Assembly (NCBI GenBank): GCA_000002445.1
Contig: CH464491.1
Span: forward strand, 1,312,001 to 1,376,000
Length of the DNA: 64,000 bases
Direction of reading: 5' to 3'
DNA from: Trypanosoma brucei
Taxonomy: Eukaryota
Shown: in pieces, positions 10,472-43,323 of the stretch
How the letters are laid out: every line of letters starts with the position of its first letter
Position numbering within the stretch: the stretch's first letter is position 1
Notes under the pieces: generated by a model
What the model saw: the letters and a program-made list of their open reading frames with translations, nothing else
Databases searched by the model: none
What the model was told of the DNA's origin: nothing
Translations under genes and position numbers: made by a program

Positions 10472-11627
10472 ACCTGCAAATTAAATCACATGCCTCAGTG
10501 CGCACAAGCATATATCCACATATATTTGTTTATTTCTTTATATATCCGGCACGTATTTAGTTAATTGACAGAGCGGATTGCAGTTAATAGAGGACTTTTT
10601 TTTCCTGCAATCGAGTATATATATATTTTTTCGCTTTCTTTTTTCTTCGTTCCACTATGCCCGTGCTGCAGAGCCCCTGTTTTTAGTTTTTTTTACTATC
10701 CACTAGCGTAGGGTAACGCTTATGCTTACTAACTACCAGTTGCCTTTCCGGTATCGGCGAGGAAGGGAACGGAAGAGGTTTTTTTTAAAAAAAGATTAAA
10801 GGAAGAAGCGGTGACAGGTGTTGACGTACCGCAGTATTCTCATTCGGTTCAGTTCACGTTTCCTTCAATTGGTTTCTACTTTTTTTTTTGTTTAATCTTT
10901 CACTTTCTGCTTTCTCCCTTTTCCCTTTTCCCCTCCCCGCTTCCGTACCCCTATTTTCCTCTGGCCTCCGCCCTGTGGGCGAAAAAGGTGAGTAAATGTG
11001 TTACGAGTATGCAACTGTGCATAAATATATGAATAAATATATATATATATAACTAGAACAGTAAATAAGAGCATTGAATTGCGGTAACCCGTGGTGGTGA
11101 AAGGAGCTGCAACAAACTTGGAGGAAAGAAAAAAAAAGGAAATGAAAATGTGATTTCGCTCCCCTCCTTCCTTTCTTCCTTACACACATACTCGCTTCCC
11201 CTCCCCCCTCCCCACAATTTCTCTCTCATTTTCTCATTGGGAATTATGCTCCCGGCGACCGATGCATGTGAAGACGTGCCGTGTTGTTGTCGTCCCCCCC
11301 CGTGTGGTGTTATTACCATTGTGCTTTTGCATTATTGTTCTTTTTTGTTTGTTTGTTTGTTTTCATTTCAACAAATTGTTGGGTCCCCCTCCCTCCGCAC
11401 ACCCCTGATTGGGTATTCTGTTTTGCTTTGACGCGCACCCGTATTTTCTACCGTCGTTATTGTTGATTCCTGCTTACATCTCTGCTGTCGTTATCAGTAC
11501 ACTTATATTATGGTCAAGATGTTCGTCACTTAACTGACTAAATTAACCCAACATTGTTATTATTGTGAATATTAATGCTTTTATTTGTTGCTGGCGCTTT
11601 TTTTTTTCGAATTTATGCTTTTTCCTC

Positions 11628-11670
11628 CTATATATATATATATATATATATTTATTTATTTATTTATATA
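11628..11670. repeat. (TA)n / (TTTA)n microsatellite
   Basis: tatatatatatatatatatatatttatttatttatttatatata. Confidence 0.9.
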
Positions 11671-12279
11671 TAGTTTCATCGGTATAGGGCAGTGTGTATA
11701 TGTGTGAAGGAATGAGAGAAAAAGGAATTAGGGGGAGAGAGTAGAAGGAACCGAAGAAATGGAAAAGAAAGCGAGGGAAATGTGCCATCGGGTTGTGGTA
11801 TTTTTGGCCGCTAAATCAAGTATGTATGAAGAAATGCATTTAACAAATGAGCAAGTCATCAAGTGGGGTTGCAACTGCGGCCTCATTGGGTAACTACTTG
11901 CCGCATATGTGCGATGAATGGCATTCGTGTATATATATATATACGCATTTTATATTTCACCTTCATATATATTTGTGGTTCCATTTCATCAACTCATGTC
12001 TCAGTTGTATTACGTCTGACGTTATTCCCGCACGCTTGTTTTATTATTATTTTTTTCCTCCCCCTTTTCGTTTTTCCTCATTCCAATCCTTTTTAATAGG
12101 TAACAAGGTGTAGCTCCTCTCCTGTCCCTTTAGGTAATAGGGAGGGATTTTCCACCCGCGAAAGTGCGGTGTGTGTGCGTGTGGAAAAAACAAACCAAAT
12201 AATTAGTTCTTTAAAAAAAAAACAAAAAGAAGGAAGGGGGTAAGACGAGTTATTTTTGACTCGTGTCTTGGAGGGAAAT

Positions 12280-13454: not shown

Positions 13455-14495
13455 ATGAGGCCAGATTACATGGGTTTCATGTTCCTTACGAGCGGTGTAA
13501 TGTCGTTCAACGCGGGAATCTGGCAACTGCATCGCCGGCGGCAGAAGCGCCGTTTGATGGAAAACCACAAGAATATCCGCAAACCTCCAGTATATGAACT
13601 TCCACCAGGAGATGCCACCATCGACGAGTTTGAATTCCTCCCAGCCGCCTTCGAGGGCACATTTGATAACGAAGGCTCCATGCTTGTGGGCCCGCGTGCT
13701 CTTCCGACTTATAAGGGAGCCTCTTCAAACGAAGAGAGTAACGGGGGATTTCTGGTGGTGACGCCTTTTGAGATTGCCCACACCGGTCAGTTCATAATGG
13801 TGAACCGTGGCTGGGTTCCCATAGACGCCGGAAAGCACAGGACTCTCCTCATGCAGTACGTTGGCGAGGGTTTCACACCGGGTTCAGTGCGTGGCATATT
13901 CCGGCGTGAGGAATACATGTCTGCTTCACTAATTTGGGGACCGAATAAAGACAATGAGGGCCCCGTTGCCGCGGATTTATCGTGGCTGGTCATGCGCCCA
14001 TGGAACATGGCGGTCCACTACTACAAGCGCAGGTGGGGACCTGATCGTGCAGAGGAGTCGGTAGAAAAGCACGGTGCGCGGCATTACTACTTGGAAATGA
14101 TTGAGGACTATTCGGGAGATGACCAGCGAATGGTGCGCGGCCACCCGTGGCCATGGCGACGCAGCGTAGATGAAATAACTTACGTCCACTTACCCCCTTC
14201 TGTGCATACCATGTACATTTTCTTCTGGTTCTCTGTTACTCTGGGGTCTCTCTACGGTATGGGTAAATGCTACAAACGACAGAAGGAACTCTTTGCGCTG
14301 CGCAGGCAAATGACTGCACAGACAACACTGCTGGAACGGAAACGACAAGAGGAAGCGAAAATGTACATGGAGGCAATGAAGGAGGTGGAGCGGTTGAAGA
14401 AGTTGGGAACTGTCGCGGCACCGCGAATTGGGTCACAACCAACTGAACAACAGAAGTCAGATGAAAAGTCTCCCGCCTCAGGGGAGAAGTCGTAA
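13455..14495 (+). CDS. SURF1: SURF1/Shy1 family cytochrome c oxidase assembly protein
   Basis: ATG start. N-terminal TM helix followed by the conserved GIWQLHRRRQK motif (cf. GTWQVQRRKWK in human SURF1). Later VVTPFE...IMVNRGWVP matches the SURF1 VVTPF...ILVNRGFVP block. A second TM helix lies near the C-terminus (MYIFFWFSVTLGSLYG). Confidence 0.88.
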   Translation: MRPDYMGFMFLTSGVMSFNAGIWQLHRRRQKRRLMENHKNIRKPPVYELPPGDATIDEFEFLPAAFEGTFDNEGSMLVGPRALPTYKGASSNEESNGGFLVVTPFEIAHTGQFIMVNRGWVPIDAGKHRTLLMQYVGEGFTPGSVRGIFRREEYMSASLIWGPNKDNEGPVAADLSWLVMRPWNMAVHYYKRRWGPDRAEESVEKHGARHYYLEMIEDYSGDDQRMVRGHPWPWRRSVDEITYVHLPPSVHTMYIFFWFSVTLGSLYGMGKCYKRQKELFALRRQMTAQTTLLERKRQEEAKMYMEAMKEVERLKKLGTVAAPRIGSQPTEQQKSDEKSPASGEKS

Positions 14496-16146: not shown

Positions 16147-19100
16147 ATGCGGCTAAATAGCTGCTGGATACGGAGGGTACACAGGGGAATTGCACAGTCG
16201 AACTTAAGATGTGTCTCTACCTTCGCCGCTCTTGTAAAGGTGCAAGAAGCCCTGAAAAGTTCGAAACCATTTGCTGATGATGCCAAGGGTTTTGCAGAGT
16301 TCTTTCGAGTTCCATGTCTTCCCGGCGTTGGGGCGCAGGAGAGCGTTCGCCGCCACTACGACCGAGTGCTCCGAGACCTCAAGCAACAAAAAGATAGCTA
16401 CGTCATGCGACAACAAGGACAAGATGAGCGTGTCAACGAGGAACTTCCAATCTTTTTGGTCTCATATGATACTGGATCGAAAAACTTTTACCTCTTTTCG
16501 GTCGAGAAAGATTGCAATGCAGTCCGCTCTCCAGCTGATGGTGAGTCAGACGTATCAGGTTTGGCGGACGAACTAATGCAATACACACGCGGCATGACAC
16601 AAGCGATTATGATTCCCATTGTGGCCGACGAAGAGGAGCGGGGAGCTCTGGCCCCTCACCTGACGCGACTCAGCGGTGAACTGAAACGGTGTGGCATCAT
16701 TCCTGTTCTCAGTGTTGATAGCTTAGAAATCATAAAGACACTAGATCCCCAGCAGTCGCCTGTTCGTATCGTGACAAAAGGTCGCGGCAAGCATGCGTCG
16801 GAGCCACTCACCGAAGAGTGGTTTCGCGCCCATTGGGTACACCTGCGCACGCTCGTCTTCAAATCCAGCGAGGAGGACCCCATTATTACTTTGAACCGCC
16901 TCGTCGCGCCACGGTTTACCATATATGTTATTCACCTGGTGCGCGCAGGTTCCCGCGGACTTAACGTGGCCCTTTATGAGCCGCTTCAGAAAAAACGATA
17001 TGGAGCAAAGGGGATGCTTTCCGACGTTTTGGGCTGCCTCTTAGAGAGGCAAGCAAAGCAGGTGATATTTCTCCCAACGAACCGTACAGATCGTCCCACA
17101 TTACTGCGATGTCGTACCGCGCTCACAAAAATGGGACGCACTTGTTACCTTGTCTTCCCATCAGAGATTGGGGAAAAGTATCGTGGGGTATATCAGTCGG
17201 ATCCGGCCCGGTACTGGTCATCGCTATGTGAGGTAAAAGGTTCTCTCGACGCAGATTTCAGCTTTGAAGTGTACGCAACTGTAGGAAATAATATTCGCAC
17301 CCAGCAGTACAAGCGAACGAGAGAAAATTTACTAGAGAAGCAGGCTTCCTTAAGCAGCGAAAATAACATGCCGGCAGTAACAAACTCTGAGGTGGAGAAG
17401 TGGCTTCGTGTTCTTTCACTCGATAAGCGTGTGTCATGTGAAAAGGCACAAATGCGCAAGTACAAAAAGTACCTTGTGATTGCATTCATGGCGACGGAAT
17501 TTGCTGCATACACTCGACCGGCAAACCCCCACGCACCTGCGAATTATGTGGTAGCTACTAGCATTATGGACTATCAGCAACAGGTTGTGGAGCCATGGAC
17601 CAAGTACTCTTCCCGCGGGGAGTTCAAGCTACCCTCATTGGAAGGGTTCGATGTTATTGTGTGTCACGATGTTAAACACTTCGTGTTATTGATATGGGAC
17701 GATCCCGAACTCCGACGTTTCTTAAAGCGTGGGGGAAGGGTGTGGTGCACGATGTTCGCAGAATACCTCCTCGACGCCCAGAGGTGTCAGTCTGGCAGCA
17801 ATAGCCTTCACGACGTGGCAATGAAATACGGCATCCTCACACCACAGTCGTCGGTTTTGGGGCTCAGTACGCCAGACCTCCCCATTGCATTTATTCAACA
17901 CTACCTGGTAGCCGCAGTGGATGCTATATCCCGTGTTTTTCAAGAACAACTCAAAAAGGCCTGTGGGAATAGCCAATTGATTTGTGTCGCCCATCGGATG
18001 GATTCGTTGCTAGCGATGGCTTCCATAGAGAAGGCTGGAATTCACATCGATTCCAAGGAGGCAACTCTGCAGGCACAGGCGATCCGTAATCGGTTATTGG
18101 CTATCGACAAGTCTCTCTCTCTTTATGCACCCGATGAAATACCACTTGACATGCAACGGTTCTTCGACTGGACTTCCTTACAACACCTTCAGGCCTACTT
18201 CTTCGGTGGAAGCATTACGTTGGGCTACACAGACATTTCGCGTGATTCCTCCACATGGACCGCCCATCTCATTCATCTCTGCCATAAATACGGCAACCTC
18301 GGGCTCATGTCGGCAGATGTGCACCTACAGCGGTTCGCTTCTGAAAGAGGGTTGCGGGGAGCTGGGCGTTTACCACAGCGTGTGGCACGATTCTTTGATG
18401 CGGACGGAAGCTCCCGGAGGCGCAAGTACAGACTAGTTGTATTTGATATTGAATCCACGGGATTGAATACAGCGACTGACGCCATAATTGAGGTTGCTGC
18501 ATTTGATCCCGTGGAGGGGACGTCTTTTAGCTCATTGGTAAATCCGCAACGCCCCATCCCGCCACAGTCTACCGCTATCCATCACATAACCGACAGTATG
18601 GTGCAGGGAGCTCCGCGTTTGTCAGAGGTTACACAAGCCTTTGCACGGTACTTGCGGCTGAGTGAAGGGCAGCGCGATGAGGATGAAGTTACAATCCTCA
18701 TAGGTCACAATGTTTTCGCCCTTGATGAACCGCTCCTTCGCCGCGCTTTTCGGTCTGAAAGTGTGGATACAGAGAACCTTCTCTTTTGTGATTCGCTCAC
18801 TATACTTAAGGGTCTCAAGCAGGAACTGCAGGGGTCAAAGAAAGATTCGAAGTTTGACAGAGGGGTGCTGGATATATTGACCAACTCACTTCGTCTCTCT
18901 TCCCTCGTAGAAGGCTTGCGTGTAGAGGCCGACGGAGAACTTCACCGTGCCGACACGGATGCGAAAATGCTGTGGTTTGTTCTCGTTAACGCTTTCGGTA
19001 TCGGGGGAAAGGATGCCGTCAAGCAGCGCGATGAGGTGCTTAGCCATGCTGTACGCACGCTGGTATTGTACCCAGGTGTTGGGTGTTTTCTTCCGCAGGA

Positions 19101-20361
19101 GCGACGAAAGGATTGCGTCACAGTTCAGTTACCTGGCGTATGCTTCAAGGCGATAAAAGAAAAACGAACCATTGAACAGCTTCGCAAGCGCCACCTCGAT
19201 GAGGCAACATTTGTCGTGTTACAGCGGCACAAGCTGGAGGTAGCGGGGCTTCTACTACAAAAGTTGCAATTAGAGCGTGGCTCCGCAAATTTTCTCCACT
19301 CGGGAACTGATGGCCGGCTGTCCATCCTTCATAGTGACAATAAGGTAAGACAGTATATTGATCTTACCGCTACCACAACTTCACGCACAACGAGCTCCTA
19401 CCCAAGCTGCCAAAATATCCCGAAGGACGACAAATCTTCGCTACGCCACCTTTTTGTATCAAGGTTTGGTGAGAAGGGCCGTTGCGTGGAAATTGACTAC
19501 TCGCAGCTGGAGATTGTTGTTATGGCTGTTCTCTGTGAGGACGAAAGGCTCGTTTCAGACCTAAACCAGGGGGTCGACTTCCACGTGAAACGCGCTTCGT
19601 TTTTCAGTGGAATATCCTATGATGAAATCTATAACGGATACAAGCGTGGAGAGGCCAAATTTCTCAAGCTACGTAAAGTGGCCAAGACTTTCTCGTTTCA
19701 GCGTTTGTATGGTGCAGGCGTGCCGCTGCTTCACAAAACGACTGGTATCCCCGTTCAGGATCTTCAGGAATGTATACGCAGGGAAGAGGAAGAATATCCA
19801 GGTATATCGCGCTTCCACCGTCTCGCTCGGACGGTTGCTCTGCGGGCAAATAATCCCGGTCTGCCAACACACTTCATTGTTGAGCTCCCTACAGGCCTAC
19901 GCGTATGTTACAAAACCCGAGATGTAGTGCTCAACCTTCCTCCAGTGAAAAATTACCCCATTCAAAGCTTTGGTGCGGAACTTGCCCAAATGATGATTGG
20001 GCGCGTATTTCGTCAATTCGTGCGCAAAAGTTTTTACGGCCAAAAAGCCTTTATGATAAACTTCGTACACGATTCGCTTTGGCTCGACTGCCACATGAGT
20101 GTCCTTGAGGAATGTGTACACGAGACGCGCACCATCATGGAAGAAGTAGACACGTACGTGGCAAAGACATTCCCAGGTGTTAAGTTGAAAGTTCCGCTGA
20201 AGGTTTCAGTGGACTGTGGCGTGGATATGTGTGCCATGGAATCCGTCAAGGATGATTTCAGCGCGCTCGCGTCACAGCAGCGAAGCAAATCGTCAGAGTT
20301 AGATGCACTTATACCCGAACTTAGTAAGGAAGTTACTGACAGTGTAGAAATTACGGTGTAA
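16147..20361 (+). CDS. POLIB: Family-A (Pol I-like) DNA polymerase with inserted DEDD 3'-5' exonuclease domain; mitochondrial POLIB-type architecture
   Basis: Exonuclease motifs: Exo I VVFDIESTGL, Exo II IGHNVFALDEP, Exo III HRADTDAKM. These lie ~250-350 aa upstream of polymerase motif A (EIDYSQLEIVVMA), consistent with insertion in the thumb. Motif B is KVAKTFSFQRLYGAG and motif C is VHDSLWLD. The ~1400-aa size matches kinetoplastid POLIB. The symbol rests on architecture and on recalled neighbourhood with PGFS. Confidence 0.8.
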   Translation: MRLNSCWIRRVHRGIAQSNLRCVSTFAALVKVQEALKSSKPFADDAKGFAEFFRVPCLPGVGAQESVRRHYDRVLRDLKQQKDSYVMRQQGQDERVNEELPIFLVSYDTGSKNFYLFSVEKDCNAVRSPADGESDVSGLADELMQYTRGMTQAIMIPIVADEEERGALAPHLTRLSGELKRCGIIPVLSVDSLEIIKTLDPQQSPVRIVTKGRGKHASEPLTEEWFRAHWVHLRTLVFKSSEEDPIITLNRLVAPRFTIYVIHLVRAGSRGLNVALYEPLQKKRYGAKGMLSDVLGCLLERQAKQVIFLPTNRTDRPTLLRCRTALTKMGRTCYLVFPSEIGEKYRGVYQSDPARYWSSLCEVKGSLDADFSFEVYATVGNNIRTQQYKRTRENLLEKQASLSSENNMPAVTNSEVEKWLRVLSLDKRVSCEKAQMRKYKKYLVIAFMATEFAAYTRPANPHAPANYVVATSIMDYQQQVVEPWTKYSSRGEFKLPSLEGFDVIVCHDVKHFVLLIWDDPELRRFLKRGGRVWCTMFAEYLLDAQRCQSGSNSLHDVAMKYGILTPQSSVLGLSTPDLPIAFIQHYLVAAVDAISRVFQEQLKKACGNSQLICVAHRMDSLLAMASIEKAGIHIDSKEATLQAQAIRNRLLAIDKSLSLYAPDEIPLDMQRFFDWTSLQHLQAYFFGGSITLGYTDISRDSSTWTAHLIHLCHKYGNLGLMSADVHLQRFASERGLRGAGRLPQRVARFFDADGSSRRRKYRLVVFDIESTGLNTATDAIIEVAAFDPVEGTSFSSLVNPQRPIPPQSTAIHHITDSMVQGAPRLSEVTQAFARYLRLSEGQRDEDEVTILIGHNVFALDEPLLRRAFRSESVDTENLLFCDSLTILKGLKQELQGSKKDSKFDRGVLDILTNSLRLSSLVEGLRVEADGELHRADTDAKMLWFVLVNAFGIGGKDAVKQRDEVLSHAVRTLVLYPGVGCFLPQERRKDCVTVQLPGVCFKAIKEKRTIEQLRKRHLDEATFVVLQRHKLEVAGLLLQKLQLERGSANFLHSGTDGRLSILHSDNKVRQYIDLTATTTSRTTSSYPSCQNIPKDDKSSLRHLFVSRFGEKGRCVEIDYSQLEIVVMAVLCEDERLVSDLNQGVDFHVKRASFFSGISYDEIYNGYKRGEAKFLKLRKVAKTFSFQRLYGAGVPLLHKTTGIPVQDLQECIRREEEEYPGISRFHRLARTVALRANNPGLPTHFIVELPTGLRVCYKTRDVVLNLPPVKNYPIQSFGAELAQMMIGRVFRQFVRKSFYGQKAFMINFVHDSLWLDCHMSVLEECVHETRTIMEEVDTYVAKTFPGVKLKVPLKVSVDCGVDMCAMESVKDDFSALASQQRSKSSELDALIPELSKEVTDSVEITV

Positions 20362-27453: not shown

Positions 27454-28277
27454 TACTTTGGTTGATGATACAAAAGCAAGAGTTAGCCCCGGAGTTTCCG
27501 CTATGGTGTTGTCTTTACCTTCCCATCTCCCTAGGGGGGGGGAATTTATGCTCCTTGTACACCTTCTCCTACCCCCAGTTTAGTAGAGTTCGATGGCATC
27601 AATATGACATATTAAACCGTGGGTGTAGTTAAGTGAATACCATCATTAATTGTACTATCAGATGTTAGTGTAGTGTCGGGTGTCAGTGGCAAGTGCAAGA
27701 GGAGAAGAAGGTAAATTTCTCCCGATTCGTCAAAGTCACGTTACGGCCTGTTACCGATTGGCAGAACCCTTTCGTGTTGGAAACCACACTCAACCGCTCC
27801 ATTTTAGGTGTGCTTATGTGTTTTGTCTCTTCTCTCTTTCCCATCCACACACACACGAACACAAAGGCCTAAAATAAAATCCCACTAAAAACGTTACTGC
27901 GACACTATCACTCACAAAATTCACTACTTTTAACCTTGTTTATTATTGTAATAATAATAATAAATGAATGGATTAACCCTCTACTTAGACACAAGGAGAA
28001 GTTACACATTAAAGCACAGTTAAGTTGAGGGGAAAGCGCAAGCAAAGGGATTGAAGGCGAAAGTGACTTTCCACTACGTTTTTTCAGCAGTTCATCGAAA
28101 ATCGGCAAAAAAAAGTGGGTGTATTTAAAAAAGGAAATATATACGGACGTGAATATAAGAAACATCGAAGAAATAGGAAAACAACATATTGAAAAATAAC
28201 ACAAACACATTTTGTAAAAAAAAAAAAAAGACAAACAGTAGTAGTATAGATTTACAGGGGTCTACAACGGTACTGAA

Positions 28278-29591
28278 ATGAATCGCATACTGTTTGCACT
28301 TGCCATCATCTTTTATTTACCGATTCCCCTCAGCGTCATCAAGGGGAGCTGTAAAGAAATTCCGACCCACCAGCAGCCACAGGCCCCTTACATACCAAAT
28401 ATTCAAAAGCAAACAAAAGAGGTATTGACACCATCGCAACAAGAAGATAAACAGAATTTTTCTCCAACGCTCCACAAAATAGAAAGTGCGCGGCAGTTCC
28501 ACTACGACGACTCAACAAATATCGACGGAAACAAAAGCATTCAGCATCAAACCGCAGTAACAGACGTCAATGACAATAACAGTGCCAACACTTCCAATGA
28601 GGATGAAGAGGAAGATGAAGATGAAGATGATACCGCAGTAACAGACGTCAATGACAATAACAGTGCCAACACTTCCAATGAGGATGAAGAGGAAGATGAA
28701 GATGAAGATGATACCGCAGTAACAGACGTCAATGACAATAACAGTGCCAACACTTCCAATGAGGATGAAGGGGAAGATGAAGATGAAGATGATACCGCAG
28801 TAACAGACGTCAATGACAATAACAGTGCCAACACTTCCAATGAGGATGAAGAGGAAGATGAAGATGAAGATGATACCGCAGTAACAGACGTCAATGACAA
28901 TAACAGTGCCAACACTTCCAATGAGGATGAAGAGGAAGATGAAGATGAAGATGATACCGCAGTAACAGACGTCAATGACAATAACAGTGCCAACACTTCC
29001 AATGAGGATGAAGAGGAAGATGAAGATGAAGATGATACCGCAGTAACAGACGTCAATGACAATAACAGTGCCAACACTTCCAATGAGGATGAAGGGGAAG
29101 ATGAAGATGAAGATGATACCGCAGTAACAGACGTCAATGACAATAACAGTGCCAACACTTCCAATGAGGATGAAGAGGAAGATGAGGATGAAGATGATAC
29201 CGCAGTAACAGACGTCAATGACAATAACAGTGCCAACACTTCCAATGAGGATGAAGAGGAAGATGAGGATGAAGATGATACCGCAGTAACAGACGTCAAT
29301 GACAATAACAGTGCCAACACTTCCAATGAGGATGAAGAGGAAGATGAGGATGAAGATGATACCGCAGTAACAGACGTCAATGACAATAACAGTGCCAACA
29401 CTTCCAATGAGGATGAAGGGAAAGAGGAACTGGAGTTTACCATTGCTCCTTCTCCTGTTTTTTTACCTCCTCCACCGGTAAGTGATGAAAATTCCACTCT
29501 TCTGGATGGGAATGATCTCTCCGTTGACAGGGGTAATTATTGTTCATTGCTATTTTCCTTCGTGTTTGTGTTTCTTACCTTTGTCGTCTAA
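28278..29591 (+). CDS. Secreted/GPI-type acidic tandem-repeat protein: 10.5 copies of the 27-aa unit TAVTDVNDNNSANTSNEDEEEDEDEDD
   Basis: ATG start. The N-terminal hydrophobic signal peptide is MNRILFALAIIFYLPIPLSVIKGSC. The central part is a perfect-to-near-perfect 81-bp tandem array. The C-terminal hydrophobic tail LLFSFVFVFLTFVV is typical of a GPI-anchor signal. Confidence 0.7.
   Translation: MNRILFALAIIFYLPIPLSVIKGSCKEIPTHQQPQAPYIPNIQKQTKEVLTPSQQEDKQNFSPTLHKIESARQFHYDDSTNIDGNKSIQHQTAVTDVNDNNSANTSNEDEEEDEDEDDTAVTDVNDNNSANTSNEDEEEDEDEDDTAVTDVNDNNSANTSNEDEGEDEDEDDTAVTDVNDNNSANTSNEDEEEDEDEDDTAVTDVNDNNSANTSNEDEEEDEDEDDTAVTDVNDNNSANTSNEDEEEDEDEDDTAVTDVNDNNSANTSNEDEGEDEDEDDTAVTDVNDNNSANTSNEDEEEDEDEDDTAVTDVNDNNSANTSNEDEEEDEDEDDTAVTDVNDNNSANTSNEDEEEDEDEDDTAVTDVNDNNSANTSNEDEGKEELEFTIAPSPVFLPPPPVSDENSTLLDGNDLSVDRGNYCSLLFSFVFVFLTFVV
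28551..29419 (+). repeat. 81-bp tandem repeat, 10 full copies plus one partial copy (coding repeats of the acidic protein)
   Basis: The unit accgcagtaacagacgtcaatgacaataacagtgccaacacttccaatgaggatgaagaggaagatgaagatgaagatgat recurs head-to-tail. Only a->g (E/G) and gaagat/gaggat variants distinguish copies. Confidence 0.95.
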
Positions 29592-30240: not shown

Positions 30241-31059
30241 ATGTTTATCAGTGGGCTGTTCGTGTTGGCCGTGGCTCTGTGCTGCACGAACCCCACAGAT
30301 GGTTGCGACAGCAACTTCACATTGGCTCAAGTGCTGACGCTGTGTCAAATAACAGAACAGCTGAGGGGACTGAAGGAAGTTGTTATGAAAATTGGACCGC
30401 GAGCTGTTGAGGAAGCATTGTTTACTTTGAAGGCGAAGAAACGTAGTGAAGTATCTTTGAGGCGGGCAGAGGAGGCGGCGGAACGGGACCGCAACGCAGG
30501 TTTTGCGGCGGAACGGGCAAGGCTGGCGTATGATAGCGTTTGTGAGGCCGTTGAGTTTGCTGAGTATGCGGCGACAAGCATCGAGGGACGAGCGAGTTCC
30601 CTCCTAGTTATTCAGGAATATTATGTGCCATTCCTGGAAGATGTGATGCTCAGGGTTGGGACGGATGCGGAAGCTGCGGAAGCCCAAGAAGCCGCCATGT
30701 CATGTCTACAAACAAAAAGAAGTGTTTCACCAACGTCACTAAGTGAAGCGGCCTTGGAACTCCGGGTGAGATTAGGGGTCAGAAACTTTAGAGCGTTGAG
30801 GCGCGATCTCCACCGAGCGGCGTTTTGTCTCTATTCGTTGAAAAAGACGGCCGCGAAGATTGCGCTGGCCAGAAGTTCAGTAGAGGAAATAGAGTACCTC
30901 ATAAACGAAGCAGCAAATGAAGCAGAGTGCGTGTCTCCCCCCAAGGGAGGCATACAGGGACAGTTGCCATCGGATGAAAGTGATTCTTCAAATTTGGTCA
31001 CTGTGATTTCGGCCGTCCCGATATGTTGGTTATTGGCCACCATTACGCGTGTTTTGTAA
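30241..31059 (+). CDS. Ala/Glu-rich putative GPI-anchored surface protein (272 aa); GARP/BARP-like composition
   Basis: ATG start. Cleavable signal peptide MFISGLFVLAVALCCTNPTDGCDS. The mature region is Ala/Glu/Arg-rich and helical (RRAEEAAERDRNAGFAAERARLAYDSVCEAVEFAEYAATSIEG). The C-terminal hydrophobic tail AVPICWLLATITRVL is GPI-signal-like. Confidence 0.6.
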   Translation: MFISGLFVLAVALCCTNPTDGCDSNFTLAQVLTLCQITEQLRGLKEVVMKIGPRAVEEALFTLKAKKRSEVSLRRAEEAAERDRNAGFAAERARLAYDSVCEAVEFAEYAATSIEGRASSLLVIQEYYVPFLEDVMLRVGTDAEAAEAQEAAMSCLQTKRSVSPTSLSEAALELRVRLGVRNFRALRRDLHRAAFCLYSLKKTAAKIALARSSVEEIEYLINEAANEAECVSPPKGGIQGQLPSDESDSSNLVTVISAVPICWLLATITRVL

Positions 31060-31444: not shown

Positions 31445-31784
31445 CCTTAGCAGTGAATCTACGAAGTCCTCTTTCGCACATTCCACTGATGTGAACCACA
31501 CCCTCTCGCACATAATTAGTTATTGATTTAATACTGCATATAAATCTATTTTATATATATTTTAAATATTTACTGATGCTTTCTACCAGCCTTGAGGCGC
31601 ATGCAGTCGCCCAAAAATAAGTGGACATCGCAGTAGATTTATTGTGGAGTGATATCAATAAGCTTGCGCGTGTGTATATGAGACCCGTTTCCTCTCTTCT
31701 TTTTAGTGGTGCTCCTATTTTCCTTGTTTTGGTGTTTGTTTCTTCGTGTGTGTGTGTGTGTGTGTGTGTGTGATGCTGTTGCAT
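31445..31784 (+). repeat. Copy 2 of the ~330-bp direct repeat (longer (GT)n)
   Basis: Aligns base-for-base with 29698..30023 apart from tatattttt/tatatatattt, ttttt/tttct and the (GT) tract length. Sequences diverge immediately after gatgctgttgcat. Confidence 0.9.
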
Positions 31785-33036: not shown

Positions 33037-35340
33037 CTAAAACACTTCAACATGCCTGTGGTTTTCATCATCTGCTTTACCATCTGTGAGATCACATCGC
33101 TGCTTGACTCTCATTGGAGTGGCGTCAGGGTGCTGAACATAAATCATTTCCCATCGATACTTCCCCATAACTGCTTTCCAATATTCATCACTTGGATTAG
33201 TGGTTGGATTTAAAAGTTTCTTCAGCATGCCAAGGAATGTTCCTGTCTTCGTATCATGCGATTCAGCAGTTGTGTACTGCAACATCACTATTGTCTTTTG
33301 TTTTCTCTGTTGTTTTTTATCCTCAGCAATTGCATCAGGGTCAACAACAAAGAAGGCATCCAAAACAGGGAAGTTAGGAAGCGCCTAGTATGCCTGAAAG
33401 AGACTTGGGGAACGTGTTATCATGCCACAACCGTCTGTAAAATCGGCAGCGTTGCCAAAGTTCAGGTATCTCTTCTGTACATGCCTCAAGACAGTGATAT
33501 TCTGCGCAACTTCCTGTTCCTCTACTCCCCTTTCGGGAAGTGGCTTGGTCATTTCGGTGATCGTACTCAACACTTTGGGAAATCCAAGTGCTTTTATAGC
33601 ATTGTACTCAAATAAAGCTGGAATTATCTCACGGGTAGGAATAAGCCCCGCCAACTGAGCTAAATTTTGAGCGGTTATTTCAGTTTCTCAATTATTCTCT
33701 TCTTTATGGATTCAGAGTGAGGTACGCATATGTATATCTCACCATTGTTTCTCCCACAGGCACGAACAATCTTCACGAGTTTGTGAGACGCGTCACTTTC
33801 CTTCCATTCGCCTTTGTTACCCACCACGCCAATATAGAGTTCACGTCGCTCATGGGATTTGATGGAATTTATTTCTTTGTCTATGTCGACCTCACGCGTG
33901 ACATACTTTGCTTCATCAAACACATAACGAAGTGAAGGTCCGACAAACTCCACACGGCTCTCATGCATCTCCCACTTTTCCCTCAACCCGACAGGTGTGG
34001 CTCCAGGATACAGCATGGGTCCAATACGTGAGAAGAAAGCCCGCATTTCAGTCATTTCCCAGCAGTTAACAAAGATACGTGTACATCTTTCCCTTTGCTG
34101 GAACCAGCTGTCAAAATTTCTCAAATTGGGTGAACTGATCAAAATGCTTCCCCATTTTGGAGCCACATCTGCCGGTGGCTGCTCGCCTTTGTTGACGAAG
34201 TCATAAATAACATAACCACGTGTATTAGATGATATAACCTTCATAAACGTTATAGCCGCTTCTTTACTGTACTCCCTAACTCTGCCAACGCCACCACCAC
34301 CAGATTTCTCAAATATATATGCGGCTACACCACGGAAGTACGCAACAACAGGCAACTCTTCCGCATCATAATGCAGTAAGTTGTAGAGTATGAAAGAACC
34401 CAAATTCTGAGATTTACCAATCCCAGGATTACCAATGGCAACGTATGATCGTGGAAAATAAAGACATCCCGGTAAAGCACGCTGTGTACGCCATAATTCA
34501 ACTCCACTCCTTACAACTTTCCATACGCGGAGCTCTTCTCTACGGGTGAATATTCTTTTGTTACTTCCGTCGGTAAACTTGGCTTATTATCACCCCATTT
34601 GAGATGTTAGAACCATTGCTTCAACTTCTTCCCTGCGTTCTGGTTTCTTCTCAACAGCTTCCTCAATTTCAGGGACAACATTAAGTTCTTCATCCTTCCA
34701 CATTACATTGCCACCACGCGTTCCATCAACAAACTCCATCCCGAGCAGTTGAGTTCCATTGTCAATTTCAATATGACTCCATTTCGCATTATAAACAGAG
34801 TCGTAAACTCCTGGAAGGTCAGCACCGTCAGCTAGTTAAATATATCGTTCCCCCGCCTTCCTGGCAATGCACCGTACCGTGTCCAACCTTGATGTCGCTG
34901 CGGAGCCAACTTGTTTCCTCATTTGGGCAGTTGCCTTCTCGCCCCACTGCCGCAGGGAGTAAATTCCATTACCGTTTAGATAGTTTATCCAACCTTGTAT
35001 TTCAGGCAACTGCTCACATATCCTTTATCGCTTAAACTGGAGGAGATTCTCTATGTCTTCAAGTAACTCGGCATCCCTAGTGTACCTTCCTGGGTTGGTA
35101 ACACACAAACTCATTGCTACATTCTTCATGTTGTTCGTGTTCAGAAAGAATTGCATCAGAAATTCGTGCAGGCTCATTTTAGCCAACGCCGCATAGTCTT
35201 CCAGAAGCACATCCTCAACCCTACTTTCCATCGTCCAGTTGGTGTCCCCTTCATTTCTCCACCACTTCTTTCTTTTTTTTCCTTGTACGGTCCCTTGGTC
35301 GTCCTTCCGAATTCACCCCACTTACGTTTCGTTCATACAT
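33037..35340 (-). pseudogene. RHS: Retrotransposon hot spot (RHS)-like pseudogene, fragmented by frameshifts/stops
   Basis: A series of minus-strand ORF fragments with coding character sits in different frames (35025..35231, 33675..34403, 33385..33654, 33037..33363). Walker-A P-loop reads AIGNPGIGKSQNLGSFIL across 34390-34450. The N-terminal basic stretch followed by NWTMESRVEDVLLEDYAALA resembles the RHS N-terminus as I recall it. It sits next to an ingi/L1Tc element. Confidence 0.55.
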
Positions 35341-41985: not shown

Positions 41986-43323
41986 ATGTTTCGGTGTTAT
42001 GGACGAAAACTGAGTCCCCAACTACGTGACATTATACACCGACTGGACTTTATTGAAAAACAGATTATTGATCTCAAGGCTTTTCGAGATGCGGTTCAGG
42101 CGACGTTGCCAAGCGTTGCGACCGCTGCTGATGCTCTAGCTAGGAAGCGCCAAGAAACAGCAAACCAAATCAATGTAGTGGCGAAGGATCCTTTGACGTC
42201 CGAGGAGTTCGTAGAACTGAATCAATATTATGCCGTTCAAATGGTTCAAACGTTAGCACTTCGTAATATGGTGCACATAAGGACGCATGAGGATCTATAT
42301 TCACACGCCCGATTAATTCACAGAGAGTATCTTGTACGTGTTGCACAGCGGGCCCGCGCACTTAGTCATGCATGTGTGGGGTTGTCTCAGATGCCTTCTA
42401 TTCAGGAACTACGCAGGTGGTATGAGTGGAGTTTCCATGATGTGAGGAGTACGAAAGCTCCAGTCGATGCTGAGGGCGCTCTGAAATTTGATACACTAGT
42501 TAGACGTCTTTTTTTGAGGCACTACAACGTGAGCGCACTTCTTAGCGAGGGCATGCACGAACTTGGGGAGCGCCAAAGGTGGGATGAACACTCTCACTCC
42601 GATGACCTCCTTACCGAAACATTTGACGAGCTTCAACGGTTCTTCGATGAATTTTGTATGGGTCGTGTGAGGTTGCGTTTTCTCGTGGGAAATTATGTTC
42701 AGTTGTCGACGCAAATTTTGCGGGTGGAACCACGGTACTCTGAGAAGCTTACAGCTCCCATGTATTTTGACCACGACCCCGAGAGCTTTGTTGGACAAAT
42801 ATGCCAACGATGCTCATTAATAAAACTAGTAGAGTGCGCGATACGTTCTGCAAGGGCGTCTTACAGTGAGTTGGGTATTGAGCTCCGTGTAGCTGTAGAT
42901 CCTGATGCAACGCTATCTGGGATTCCATACATTACGTATGATATTTTATCTGCGTTAATTGACGATGCCATTCAGGCTAATGTTCTACGGCAGGAAAAGT
43001 ATGGAATACCATTCACGCCAGTTGTGATCACTATTGCTCAACGCAATGCCAATGAGCAGTTTAGTGTCCGTGTTTCCGATACTGCCGGCGGGATGCCCCT
43101 TCATCTTGCCCGACACGTGTTGAAATATTGGTTTGCGTACAAGTGCACGGATGACATGTTGAAACTCGCTAAAACATGGACACATAGTCCCATACGTCTA
43201 CCATATGCTTACTGTGCAGCCAAGGTTTTAGGGGGGGATATATCAGTGGTTTCCATTGATGGTTATGGCACCGACCGTTTTCTTCATCTTCCGTCCGACG
43301 GGATAGAGAGGGTTCGTTTTTAG
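41986..43323 (+). CDS. Mitochondrial PDK/BCKDK-family protein kinase-like protein (GHKL ATPase fold), with degenerate G2 box
   Basis: ATG start. G1 box VRVSDTAGGMP (cf. SDRGGGV). The C-terminal block SVVSIDGYGTDRFLHLP closely matches PDK LKLYSLEGYGTDAVIYI. The N-box-like helix is ILSALIDDAIQANV. The glycine-rich G2 loop is replaced by HSPIRLPYAY. Confidence 0.7.
   Translation: MFRCYGRKLSPQLRDIIHRLDFIEKQIIDLKAFRDAVQATLPSVATAADALARKRQETANQINVVAKDPLTSEEFVELNQYYAVQMVQTLALRNMVHIRTHEDLYSHARLIHREYLVRVAQRARALSHACVGLSQMPSIQELRRWYEWSFHDVRSTKAPVDAEGALKFDTLVRRLFLRHYNVSALLSEGMHELGERQRWDEHSHSDDLLTETFDELQRFFDEFCMGRVRLRFLVGNYVQLSTQILRVEPRYSEKLTAPMYFDHDPESFVGQICQRCSLIKLVECAIRSARASYSELGIELRVAVDPDATLSGIPYITYDILSALIDDAIQANVLRQEKYGIPFTPVVITIAQRNANEQFSVRVSDTAGGMPLHLARHVLKYWFAYKCTDDMLKLAKTWTHSPIRLPYAYCAAKVLGGDISVVSIDGYGTDRFLHLPSDGIERVRF

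What the first reader, a model, noticed from the sequence alone, without database searches (positions are those of the whole stretch)
28278..29591. Secreted/GPI-type protein built from 10.5 near-identical 27-aa hyper-acidic repeats
The repeat TAVTDVNDNNSANTSNEDEEEDEDEDD is encoded by an 81-bp unit repeated with almost perfect nucleotide identity; only E/G and gaa/gag variants occur. This implies very recent expansion or ongoing concerted evolution. An N-terminal signal peptide and a C-terminal hydrophobic GPI-like tail flank the repeats. The (N/S/T)-rich half of each repeat could be glycosylated, and the (D/E)9 half is strongly anionic, reminiscent of the procyclin/mucin style of kinetoplastid coat proteins and of immunodominant repeat antigens. 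Copy number is likely polymorphic and may be collapsed in assemblies.
Basis: seen in the sequence. Interest (0 to 1): 0.6.

Follow-up and report, generated by a model that had tools for sequence, protein, structure and literature searches.

The report
Acidic-repeat surface protein gene, Trypanosoma brucei
This is the annotated but unstudied Trypanosoma brucei gene Tb927.11.4750, which encodes a very acidic, sugar-decorated repeat protein, probably lipid-anchored to the cell surface, that the parasite switches on in the tsetse fly's salivary glands; it is a candidate coat component, not a new kind of thing.

Summary
ORF 28278..29591 (+) encodes 437 aa. It holds ten full 81-bp units plus an eleventh partial unit, and the full units differ at only two nucleotide positions. 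The window is T. brucei chromosome 11, and the gene is Tb927.11.4750 (old name Tb11.02.2360).

A 2007 repeat survey already listed it as "GPI, 11 x TAVTDVNDNNSANTSNEDE". No homologue was found outside the T. brucei group, and it has no Pfam domain. The model shows only two hydrophobic helices, one at each end, with a disordered middle. The mature protein has a net charge of about -141 and 25 N-glycosylation sequons.

Published supplementary data show an insect-stage transcript:
- Bulk RNA-seq gives 38, 126 and 617 RPKM in midgut, proventriculus and salivary gland.
- Single-cell RNA-seq marks it in attached epimastigotes and gametes, and shows it depleted in metacyclics and midgut forms. This resembles BARP and MISP.

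Assemblies disagree on the array: 10.5, 3.5 and 23 units (the last frameshifted), and one contig breaks inside it. Unit variants are allele-specific, which indicates concerted evolution.

GPI anchoring is plausible but unproven. GPI-SOM predicts it, whereas a Big-PI screen does not list the gene, and no protein-level evidence was found.

Verdict: an uncharacterised, procyclin-like (not procyclin-family) candidate coat protein of the epimastigote stage. Interest is modest.

The parts
27826..27866 (+). Candidate polypyrimidine tract (27826-27842) and first downstream AG (27865): a possible trans-splice acceptor for this gene's mRNA. It would give a 5'UTR of about 410 nt containing a tiny uORF at 27964.
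   Evidence: Pattern scan of the PFC12-to-target intergenic region and the sequence. Inferred only; no spliced-leader mapping was available.
28278..29591 (+). Complete coding sequence of Tb927.11.4750 (old ID Tb11.02.2360): 437 aa, including the stop codon.
   Evidence: ORF list. It is the only open frame. Gene ID assigned from neighbouring IDs and from the peptide match in Fankhauser 2007, Table 4.
28278..28346 (+). N-terminal signal peptide, aa 1-23 (MNR + hydrophobic ILFALAIIFYLPIPL + SVIKG). Likely cleavage is G23|S24 by the -3/-1 rule.
   Evidence: Hydropathy peak at residues 6-16. AlphaFold helix 2-13. A Phobius/GPI-SOM pipeline classed the protein as GPI. The cleavage site was inferred by inspection.
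28347..28550 (+). Unique N-terminal region, aa 24-91. It is Q/P-rich, roughly neutral (pI 6.4), has one Cys, two sequons (N60 NFS, N85 NKS), and contains most of the usable tryptic peptides.
   Evidence: Composition and in-silico digest. Predicted coil with pLDDT <50. Four nonsynonymous and no synonymous differences between haplotypes.
28551..29441 (+). Tandem array of eleven 81-bp / 27-aa units, TAVTDVNDNNSANTSNEDE(E/G)EDEDEDD. Ten are complete; the eleventh diverges after about 58 nt. Each unit carries two sequons (NNS, NTS) followed by a 12-residue D/E run.
   Evidence: TRF. In-register dissection and the variant table. Identity is highest at a lag of 4 units. 22 sequons and a net charge of about -135 in the array.
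29421..29528 (+). Unique C-terminal stalk, aa 382-417 (KEELEFTIAPSPVFLPPPPVSDENSTLLDGNDLSVD). It has a PPPP motif and one sequon (N405 NST), and it ends at the candidate omega sites S415 and D417; the third candidate, N420, lies in the next part.
   Evidence: Translation. Two nonsynonymous differences between haplotypes, K>E and P>H. Omega-site candidates were chosen by inspection only.
29529..29588 (+). C-terminal hydrophobic tail, aa 418-437 (RGNYCSLLFSFVFVFLTFVV). The protein ends inside the hydrophobic stretch with no charged cytoplasmic residues, which is the hallmark of a GPI-addition signal.
   Evidence: Hydropathy peak at 426-432. AlphaFold helix at the equivalent residues of the short allele. 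GPI-SOM call in the literature. Against: the gene is not listed in the Big-PI screen.
30241..31059 (+). Context, not part of the gene: the adjacent surface-protein gene Tb927.11.4760 (Tb11.02.2370), Fam50 subfamily 'i', GARP/BARP-like.
   Evidence: Pfam PF16731 GARP, E 1.6e-56. Jackson 2013. No similarity to the target.

Best explanation
This is Tb927.11.4750, a single-copy gene restricted to the Trypanosoma brucei group.

**Product.** It encodes a secretory-pathway protein consisting of a cleavable signal peptide, a short unique head, about 300 residues of intrinsically disordered 27-aa modules, a proline-containing stalk, and a C-terminal hydrophobic signal. Each module carries two N-glycosylation sequons followed by a 12-residue Asp/Glu run. 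The C-terminal signal is most likely exchanged for a GPI anchor.

**Expression and proposed role.** The mRNA is switched on post-transcriptionally in tsetse salivary-gland stages (attached epimastigotes and the gamete/meiotic population), together with BARP and MISP. It is low in midgut forms and metacyclics. I infer that the product forms a long, heavily N-glycosylated polyanionic brush with a net charge of about -140. This brush would project from the epimastigote surface as a minor coat or glycocalyx component. By charge and steric shielding it would do in the salivary gland what procyclins do in the midgut.

**Array evolution.** The array is kept homogeneous, and its length changes, through unequal recombination or replication slippage (concerted evolution).

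**Shown:** sequence anatomy, lack of homologues, stage-specific transcript, and differences between alleles and assemblies.

**Inferred:** translation, glycosylation, GPI anchoring, surface location and function.
For: **Anatomy**
- ORF, repeat structure and the two terminal hydrophobic segments.
- Only the two terminal helices are predicted; the rest is coil at pLDDT <55.

**Identity**
- The repeat peptide and ID Tb11.02.2360 appear in Fankhauser 2007, Table 4, as 'GPI, 11 x TAVTDVNDNNSANTSNEDE'.
- Neighbouring IDs are Tb927.11.4700 (prostaglandin F synthase, PGFS).4740 (paraflagellar rod component PFC12) and .4770 (RHS pseudogene).

**Taxonomic restriction**
- Two word-indexed searches of 5.8 bn proteins and a full HMMER scan of 1.84 bn representatives found only the T. 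b. equiperdum allele.
- No Pfam domain was found.

**Expression**
- Savage 2016, S2 Table: 37.8 (midgut), 126.2 (proventriculus) and 616.8 (salivary gland) RPKM. The gene is in the top 200 salivary-gland transcripts.
- Hutchinson 2021, single-cell S1/S2 Tables (percentage of cells in the cluster vs other cells):
  - attached epimastigote +0.49 logFC, 62.8% vs 23.8%, adj p 1e-41
  - gametes +0.35, adj p 5e-17
  - BARP-S subcluster +0.83, adj p 1e-10
  - metacyclics -0.39, adj p 5e-60
  - midgut forms -0.27

**Glycosylation plausibility**
- 25 sequons.
- T. brucei oligosaccharyltransferase TbSTT3A, and TbSTT3C, prefer sequons flanked by acidic residues.

**Concerted evolution**
- G69 is fixed in every unit of haplotype B arrays but present in only 3 of 10 units of the window.
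- The N>H variant spreads through B arrays and is absent here.
- DAL972 has a 225-bp higher-order repeat (81+81+63).

**Context**
- The gene sits next to another insect-stage surface gene (Fam50-i) and beside an RHS/ingi insertion site, typical of lineage-specific surface genes.
Against: - No protein-level evidence was found. The gene is absent from the text-held supplementary tables of the infected-saliva proteome and of the RBP6-overexpression (in vitro insect-stage differentiation) time-course proteome. The repeat region is a single 296-aa K/R-free, probably glycosylated tryptic peptide, so detectability is poor.
- GPI predictors disagree. The gene is not among the 106 unknown-function proteins of a Big-PI screen of the same genome. 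The candidate omega sites (S415-V-D, D417-R-G, N420-Y-C) are not ideal small-residue triplets and the spacer is short.
- The bulk RNA-seq fold changes did not reach p<0.05 (p = 0.08-0.12).
- The T. b. gambiense DAL972 copy is frameshifted three times in the assembly.
- The non-repeat parts show 6 nonsynonymous and 0 synonymous differences between haplotypes, against 6:10 in three flanking genes (Fisher p=0.015). Both observations are also compatible with weak constraint.
- Procyclins themselves are dispensable for cyclical transmission (my own knowledge), so a shielding role may have no strong phenotype.
Confidence: 0.6

Rival explanations
1. A weakly constrained, possibly decaying orphan gene. 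It is transcribed as part of the polycistron and its mRNA is stage-regulated, but the product has little or no function. The array is simply an unstable minisatellite that happens to lie in an open frame.
For: - No homologue exists outside the T. brucei group.
- The non-repeat regions show 6 nonsynonymous and 0 synonymous differences between haplotypes.
- The DAL972 copy carries three frameshifts and its annotated gene model lacks the signal peptide.
- The gene is absent from two proteome supplements.
Against: - The 1.3-kb frame is intact in the window and in IVM-t1, even though the array is highly mutable.
- All unit-length variants except the three DAL972 indels are multiples of 3 (81 or 63 nt).
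- Signal peptide and C-terminal tail are fully conserved apart from two conservative changes.
- The transcript is among the 200 most abundant in salivary-gland parasites and tightly follows BARP and MISP.
- The DAL972 indels look like consensus errors. One sits exactly at the polymorphic CCC/CAA site, and another lies in a unit with many substitutions.
Confidence: 0.15
2. A soluble secreted or shed acidic glycoprotein released into the salivary-gland lumen. It might act as a cation or host-factor sink, or as a matrix component at the attachment zone, either never anchored or rapidly released from its anchor.
For: - A signal peptide is present.
- The GPI signal is sub-optimal and was not listed by the Big-PI screen.
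- Other GPI proteins of these stages (BARP, MISP) are found in infected saliva.
Against: - The protein ends in a 15-17-residue hydrophobic stretch that would have to be removed or would tether it.
- It was not listed in the infected-saliva proteome tables, although detectability is poor.
Confidence: 0.12
3. A membrane protein held by its C-terminal hydrophobic helix as a type I transmembrane anchor with no cytoplasmic tail, rather than by GPI.
For: - A C-terminal helix is predicted with the highest pLDDT in the model (71-74).
- The candidate omega sites are imperfect.
- The gene is absent from the Big-PI list.
Against: - There are no residues, and in particular no basic stop-transfer residues, after the hydrophobic stretch.
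- This architecture is what GPI-SOM recognised, and it is that of the known trypanosome GPI proteins (own knowledge).
Confidence: 0.08
4. An immunodominant repeat antigen of mammalian-stage parasites, acting as a B-cell decoy or usable for serodiagnosis.
For: - The perfect repeats are of the type that is often immunogenic.
- The gene is listed among candidate repetitive surface antigens.
Against: - The transcript is enriched in tsetse epimastigote and gamete stages and strongly depleted in metacyclics, the only salivary-gland form that meets the mammal.
- No evidence for bloodstream-form expression was found.
Confidence: 0.03

Closest known systems
Procyclins (EP and GPEET; procyclic acidic repetitive proteins, PARP) of T. 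brucei
   Same: - Insect-stage protein with a signal peptide and a predicted GPI signal.
- An extended, highly acidic tandem-repeat domain makes up most of the mature protein.
- N-glycosylation sites are present.
- Repeat number varies between alleles.
   Different: - There is no sequence similarity. The unit is 27 aa with two sequons and a D/E run, not an EP dipeptide or GPEET pentapeptide.
- The gene sits in a chromosome-11 polycistron, not a Pol I procyclin expression site.
- Expression is lowest in midgut forms and highest in salivary-gland epimastigotes.
BARP (brucei alanine-rich protein) and the wider Fam50 family (GARP, CESP, MISP; Pfam PF16731)
   Same: - Same stage profile: a marker of attached epimastigotes and of the BARP-S subcluster.
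- Predicted GPI anchoring.
- The genomic neighbour, Tb927.11.4760, is a Fam50 member.
- MISP also carries C-terminal repeats of about 26 residues thought to raise the protein above the coat.
   Different: - There is no GARP triple-helical-bundle domain: no Pfam hit and no similarity to the Fam50 neighbour.
- No helices are predicted between the two termini.
- The protein is essentially all disordered repeat.
CRAM (cysteine-rich acidic repetitive transmembrane protein) of T. brucei
   Same: An acidic, highly repetitive secretory-pathway protein. It appears in the same 2007 table of repetitive membrane proteins.
   Different: - CRAM has 12-aa Cys-rich repeats, a true transmembrane domain with a cytoplasmic tail, and flagellar-pocket localisation in procyclics (own knowledge).
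- The target has no Cys in its repeats and no cytoplasmic tail.
Trypanosomatid mucins and proteophosphoglycans (T. cruzi TcMUC/TcSMUG, Leishmania PPG)
   Same: GPI-anchored or secreted, disordered, heavily glycosylated repeat proteins that form a protective anionic glycocalyx in the insect vector.
   Different: - Those carry Thr- or Ser-rich repeats modified by O-glycans or phosphoglycans.
- Here the predicted glycans are N-linked and the negative charge comes from the polypeptide itself.
- There is no homology.

Membership tests
Procyclin (PARP: EP/GPEET) family | N-terminal signal peptide | tested here: met
   Hydrophobic h-region at residues 4-18 after a basic n-region. Helix 2-13 in the model. 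A pipeline that includes Phobius placed it in the GPI class.
Procyclin (PARP: EP/GPEET) family | EP dipeptide or GPEET pentapeptide repeats, or sequence homology to procyclins | tested here: not met
   The unit is the 27-aa TAVTDVNDNNSANTSNEDEEEDEDEDD. Database searches return only its own allele.
Procyclin (PARP: EP/GPEET) family | Located in the procyclin expression sites on chromosomes 6 and 10 | tested here: not met
   It lies between PFC12 (Tb927.11.4740) and Fam50-i (Tb927.11.4760) in a one-strand chromosome-11 gene cluster.
Procyclin (PARP: EP/GPEET) family | Expression in procyclic (midgut) forms | tested here: not met
   From the literature: lowest in midgut (37.8 RPKM, against 616.8 in salivary gland) and a negative marker of the midgut-form cluster.
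Fam50 (BARP/GARP/CESP/MISP), Pfam PF16731 | GARP-type triple-helical-bundle ectodomain | tested here: not met
   No Pfam family at E<=0.01, whereas the neighbouring gene scores 1.6e-56. BLASTP against the neighbour gives E 2.5. No internal helices are predicted.
Fam50 (BARP/GARP/CESP/MISP), Pfam PF16731 | Expression in tsetse salivary-gland or epimastigote stages | tested here: met
   Published tables show it is a marker of the attached-epimastigote, BARP-S and gamete clusters.
GPI-anchored proteins (general) | Signal peptide plus a C-terminal hydrophobic stretch that ends the protein, with no cytoplasmic tail | tested here: met
   Only two hydrophobic segments are found, and the C-terminal one (~421-437) runs to the last residue.
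GPI-anchored proteins (general) | Acceptable omega site (small residues at omega and omega+2) with a polar spacer, as scored by dedicated predictors | tested here: inconclusive
   Candidates by inspection are D417-R-G, N420-Y-C and S415-V-D, with a short spacer. GPI-SOM is positive in Fankhauser 2007. The gene is not in the Big-PI list of Savage 2012. No predictor could be run here.
GPI-anchored proteins (general) | Biochemical proof: phospholipase release, cross-reacting determinant (CRD) epitope, or ethanolamine/myristate labelling | not testable with these tools
   No experimental report on this protein was found in the searched library.
Trypanosomatid mucins (TcMUC/TcSMUG type) | Thr/Ser-rich repeats serving as O-glycan acceptor runs, or mucin family domains | tested here: not met
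   There are 3 Thr and 2 Ser per 27 residues, with no runs. No Pfam hit.

The most novel reading that the evidence does not exclude
Array length and integrity of this gene might be a functional polymorphism for tsetse transmission. A longer or shorter polyanionic brush would tune epimastigote attachment or survival in the salivary gland. The triple-frameshifted T. b. gambiense DAL972 copy would then be a genuine pseudogene that contributes to that subspecies' poor salivary-gland maturation. My evidence does not exclude this: DAL972 has 23 units with three frameshifts, and the non-repeat parts show a nonsynonymous excess. But the frameshifts look like assembly errors, and no phenotype is known.
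Probability: 0.06. Interest if true: 0.6.

Novelty: new member of a known kind. Interest (0 to 1): 0.3.

Why it matters
Few surface molecules are known for the tsetse salivary-gland stages of T. brucei; BARP, MISP and metacyclic VSG are the main ones. These stages are the bottleneck for transmission. An abundant, stage-specific transcript for a T. brucei-specific, glycosylated polyanionic surface protein would add a component to the epimastigote coat. It would also be a candidate for studies of attachment or transmission blocking.

The locus has practical uses too. It is a clear example of a coding minisatellite that short-read and Sanger assemblies resolve inconsistently, so it could serve as a strain-typing marker. 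It also warns against trusting the repeat number, or the frame, in reference annotations.

It does not change how trypanosome coats are understood.

Tried and rejected
**Homologue searches**
- I searched with the full protein, with a repeat-trimmed N+C-terminal construct, and with a full HMMER scan using the short allele. Only the T. b. equiperdum allele came back.
- I could not reach the T. congolense or T. vivax syntenic loci.

**Derivation from the neighbouring Fam50 gene**
- Rejected: BLASTP gives E 2.5.

**Which salivary-gland stage expresses it**
- From bulk RNA-seq I first guessed metacyclic enrichment, because expression is highest in replicate SG3, which has low ribosomal-protein mRNA.
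- Single-cell data show the opposite, so I rejected that idea.

**Protein-level evidence**
- The infected-saliva proteome and RBP6 proteome supplements have no entry.
- The metacyclic proteome paper (Christiano 2017) is not held.

**More alleles through exact-protein anchors**
- PGFS, PFC12 and a 332-aa neighbour gave only DAL972, IVM-t1 and OVI.
- The window's own target and Fam50-i proteins are not on record.

**The IVM-t1 3.5-unit array**
- I treated it with caution after finding that the assembly used 300-bp MiSeq reads plus about 2.4x PacBio coverage. It may be collapsed.

**Literature**
- Searches for a named characterisation of the gene found nothing beyond the 2007 table and supplementary tables.

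**Fold search**
- Not attempted, because the model is disordered.
Full report
**1. The observation**

It is the only open forward frame; the other two carry 15 and 81 stops.

Tandem Repeats Finder reports an 81-bp period at 28551..29429, 10.9 copies, 98% matches, score 1702. Read in register, the array has ten complete units and an eleventh that follows the consensus for about 58 nt before running into unique sequence.

Among the ten full units only two positions vary:
- Position 59 is A>G (Glu>Gly) in units 3 and 7.
- Position 69 is A>G (GAA>GAG, synonymous) in units 8-10.

Identity is marginally highest at a lag of four units (3 mismatches), which hints at a block duplication. No 20-mer of the unit occurs elsewhere in the window. 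The 316-aa Ser-rich antisense ORF is a by-product of the repeat.

**2. Where we are**

All long ORFs of the window lie on the + strand. They include:
- a mitochondrial PolI-like DNA polymerase;
- an aldo-keto reductase;
- a GARP-family gene;
- an RHS (retrotransposon hot spot) fragment on the minus strand;
- an ingi retroelement.

This is a Trypanosoma brucei polycistron. The only database relative of the protein is a T. brucei equiperdum hypothetical protein.

A full-text search for the repeat peptide hit Fankhauser et al. 2007 (PMC2254594). Its Table 4 lists 'Hypothetical protein, Tb11.02.2360, GPI, 11 x TAVTDVNDNNSANTSNEDE, pP 229' as the top GPI-class repetitive membrane protein of T. brucei. 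The window contains exactly 11 copies of that 19-mer.

The upstream gene, Tb11.02.2350, is the paraflagellar rod component PFC12. Current IDs in a supplementary table are Tb927.11.4700 (prostaglandin F synthase, PGFS).4740 (PFC12) and .4770 (RHS pseudogene). They fix the target as Tb927.11.4750 and the downstream GARP-like gene as Tb927.11.4760 (= Tb11.02.2370). That neighbour is the single-copy chromosome-11 Fam50 subfamily 'i' locus of Jackson et al. 2013.

**3. The protein**

- Hydropathy shows only two hydrophobic segments, residues ~1-21 and ~421-437.
- The N-terminus has the n/h/c layout of a signal peptide, with a likely cleavage at G23|S24 (by inspection).
- The protein ends inside the C-terminal hydrophobic stretch with no charged tail. 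This is the usual look of a GPI-addition signal.
- Between the two ends there is no Pfam domain.
- A single-sequence AlphaFold2 model of the short allele predicts nothing but coil at pLDDT <55. The only helices are the two termini. This is weak but consistent evidence for intrinsic disorder.
- The provisional mature protein has 149 Asp+Glu against 8 Lys+Arg (net about -141, pI ~4) and 25 N-X-S/T sequons, 22 of them in the repeats.
- Each unit is thus a 'two sequons plus 12 acidic residues' module.
- T. brucei oligosaccharyltransferase TbSTT3A (and TbSTT3C) prefers sequons containing or flanked by acidic residues (PMC5724017, PMC2722254, PMC3311286). Dense N-glycosylation is therefore plausible but untested.

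**4. GPI anchoring is likely but not settled**

The 2007 pipeline (Phobius + GPI-SOM) classed the protein as GPI. However, the Big-PI-based screen of the same genome by Savage et al. 2012 does not list Tb11.02.2360 in any of its text-held supplementary tables. Its neighbour Tb11.02.2370 is listed.

By inspection, the candidate omega sites are D417-R-G, N420-Y-C and S415-V-D. They are not ideal and the spacer is short, which may be why a conservative predictor skipped the gene. No predictor could be run here.

**5. Homologues**

Two word-indexed searches (full protein, and a construct without the acidic repeats) and a full HMMER scan of 1.84 billion cluster representatives returned only the T. 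b. equiperdum allele.

The protein is unrelated to its Fam50 neighbour. The gene therefore appears restricted to the T. brucei group. Whether T. congolense or T. vivax carry a positional analogue could not be tested.

**6. Expression (from published supplementary tables)**

*Savage et al. 2016, bulk RNA-seq of fly-derived parasites, S2 Table:*

| Tissue | Mean RPKM | Replicates |
|---|---|---|
| Midgut | 37.8 | 38.7, 37.0 |
| Proventriculus | 126.2 | 49.6, 176.1, 147.9, 196.1 |
| Salivary gland | 616.8 | 324, 550, 1315 |

The midgut-to-salivary-gland change is 16.3-fold (p=0.079). The gene is in the top-200 salivary-gland list.

*Hutchinson et al. 2021, single-cell RNA-seq, S1/S2 Tables:*

| Cluster | logFC | % cells in cluster vs others | adj p |
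|---|---|---|---|
| Attached epimastigote | +0.49 | 62.8 vs 23.8 | 1.2e-41 |
| Gametes | +0.35 | 52.1 vs 25.6 | 4.7e-17 |
| BARP-S subcluster | +0.83 | 76 vs 29.6 | 1.1e-10 |
| Metacyclics | -0.39 | 15.9 vs 44.3 | 4.5e-60 |
| Midgut forms | -0.27 | 11.3 vs 30 | 1.5e-3 |

MISP genes (Tb927.7.380/.400) sit next to it in the same marker lists. The profile is that of an epimastigote-stage surface gene, not of a mammalian-stage antigen.

The adjacent Fam50-i gene has the opposite profile: midgut 153, proventriculus 99, salivary gland 35 RPKM, and proventriculus-preferential by RT-PCR. Regulation is therefore gene-specific.

No protein-level evidence was found. The whole repeat region is one 296-aa K/R-free tryptic peptide, which limits detection.

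**7. Alleles and assemblies**

Using the identical PGFS protein as an anchor, I retrieved the syntenic locus from three other assemblies.

- *T. b. equiperdum IVM-t1.* The ORF is intact at 248 aa with 3 full units plus a partial one. That assembly rests on 300-bp MiSeq reads and about 2.4x PacBio coverage, so a 284-bp array may be collapsed.
- *T. equiperdum OVI.* The contig ends 62 nt into the first unit.
- *T. b. gambiense DAL972*.
  - It has 23 units.
  - Three are 63-bp units lacking EEEDED, a fourth short unit is 62 nt, and one unit is divergent.
  - There is a 225-bp higher-order repeat (81+81+63).
  - Three frameshifting indels are present, in units of 62, 80 and 79 nt.
  - As a result the N-terminal ORF stops after 114 aa, and the annotated 354-aa model lacks the signal peptide.
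  - One indel sits exactly at the polymorphic CCC/CAA site and another in a substitution-ridden unit. I suspect consensus errors but cannot exclude a pseudogene.

Unit variants are allele-specific and array-wide. G69 occurs in every unit of the IVM-t1 and DAL972 arrays but in only 3 of 10 units here. The N>H change, which destroys the NTS sequon, occurs in most of their units and in none here. This is the signature of concerted evolution by unequal exchange or slippage.

Outside the repeats there are two haplotypes: window = OVI, and IVM-t1 = DAL972. They differ by 6 nonsynonymous and 0 synonymous substitutions, against 6:10 in three flanking genes (Fisher p=0.015). This points to relaxed constraint or diversifying selection, though the numbers are small.

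**8. Interpretation**

The best-supported reading is a T. brucei-specific, secretory, disordered, polyanionic N-glycoprotein, most likely GPI-tethered. It would be made by salivary-gland epimastigotes and gametes alongside BARP and MISP, and would act as a charged, glycosylated brush in the coat (confidence about 0.6).

It works like a procyclin but is not a member of that family. It fails the family's tests for repeat type, homology, locus and stage. It is not Fam50 either, because it lacks the GARP domain.

Rivals are:
- a weakly constrained orphan with little function (0.15);
- a soluble or shed product (0.12);
- a non-GPI C-terminal anchor (0.08);
- a mammalian-stage immunodominant antigen (0.03, contradicted by the stage data).

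**9. Novelty and score**

The repeat-plus-GPI observation was published in 2007, and the expression data sit in supplementary tables, but nobody appears to have studied the protein. It is a new, non-homologous member of a known kind: acidic repetitive insect-stage trypanosome coat proteins.

Interest is 0.3. It is useful to tsetse-stage trypanosome biologists and as a caution about repeat arrays in assemblies, but it would not surprise a specialist.

Noticed in passing
window 30241..31059 (+): The adjacent gene is the single-copy Fam50 subfamily 'i' GARP/BARP-like surface protein (Tb927.11.4760 / Tb11.02.2370; Pfam GARP E 1.6e-56). Its published stage profile is opposite to the target's: highest in midgut and proventriculus, lowest in salivary gland. 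Two neighbouring surface genes in one polycistron are therefore regulated in opposite directions.
   Followed up: partly
L002 (T. b. gambiense DAL972 chr 11, FN554974.1) 17640..19849: The orthologous array has 23 units, four of them short (three of 63 bp and one of 62 bp), arranged in places as a 225-bp higher-order repeat. Three frameshifting indels separate the signal-peptide exon frame from the annotated 354-aa gene model. This is either a real pseudogene or a Sanger consensus error in the repeat.
   Followed up: partly
L004 (T. equiperdum OVI, CZPT02001346.1) 17635..17975: The contig ends 62 nt into the first repeat unit, so the short-read assembly breaks at this array. The N-terminal coding sequence there is identical to the window's haplotype.
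   Followed up: yes
L001 (T. b. equiperdum IVM-t1) 10001..10747: This is an intact 248-aa allele with only 3.5 units. Three of its four units carry N>H, which removes the NTS sequon. The assembly is MiSeq (300 bp) plus very low PacBio coverage, so the 284-bp array may be collapsed.
   Followed up: partly
window 28278..28550 and 29421..29588 compared with L001 and L002: The non-repeat coding parts differ between the two haplotypes by 6 nonsynonymous and 0 synonymous changes. Three flanking genes give 6:10 (Fisher p=0.015). This suggests relaxed or diversifying selection on the unique head and stalk.
   Followed up: partly
window 33675..34403 (-) and 35864..~41000 (+): An RHS (retrotransposon hot spot) P-loop domain fragment lies on the opposite strand, followed by an ingi-type non-LTR retroelement (endonuclease/RT ORF, then a zinc-finger-containing ORF in another frame). 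They sit immediately downstream of the two surface-protein genes. GC skew turns negative here (32-36 kb).
   Followed up: no
window 27826..27866 and 27964..27976: A 17-nt polypyrimidine tract followed by an AG is a plausible trans-splice acceptor. A 4-codon uORF (ATGAATGGATTAA) lies in the putative 5'UTR of the target gene.
   Followed up: no
window 31746..31772 and 11629..11672: Simple microsatellites, (GT)13.5 and (TATA)11, in intergenic regions.
   Followed up: no
window 46..2820, 8399..10471, 13455..14495, 41986..43323, 46987..48465, 58060..59460: Other genes of the cluster identified by Pfam: a calpain-like protease, a kinesin, SURF1, a mitochondrial ketoacid-dehydrogenase-kinase-like protein, an ANTH/ENTH protein and a RING-finger protein. 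They are ordinary housekeeping context.
   Followed up: no
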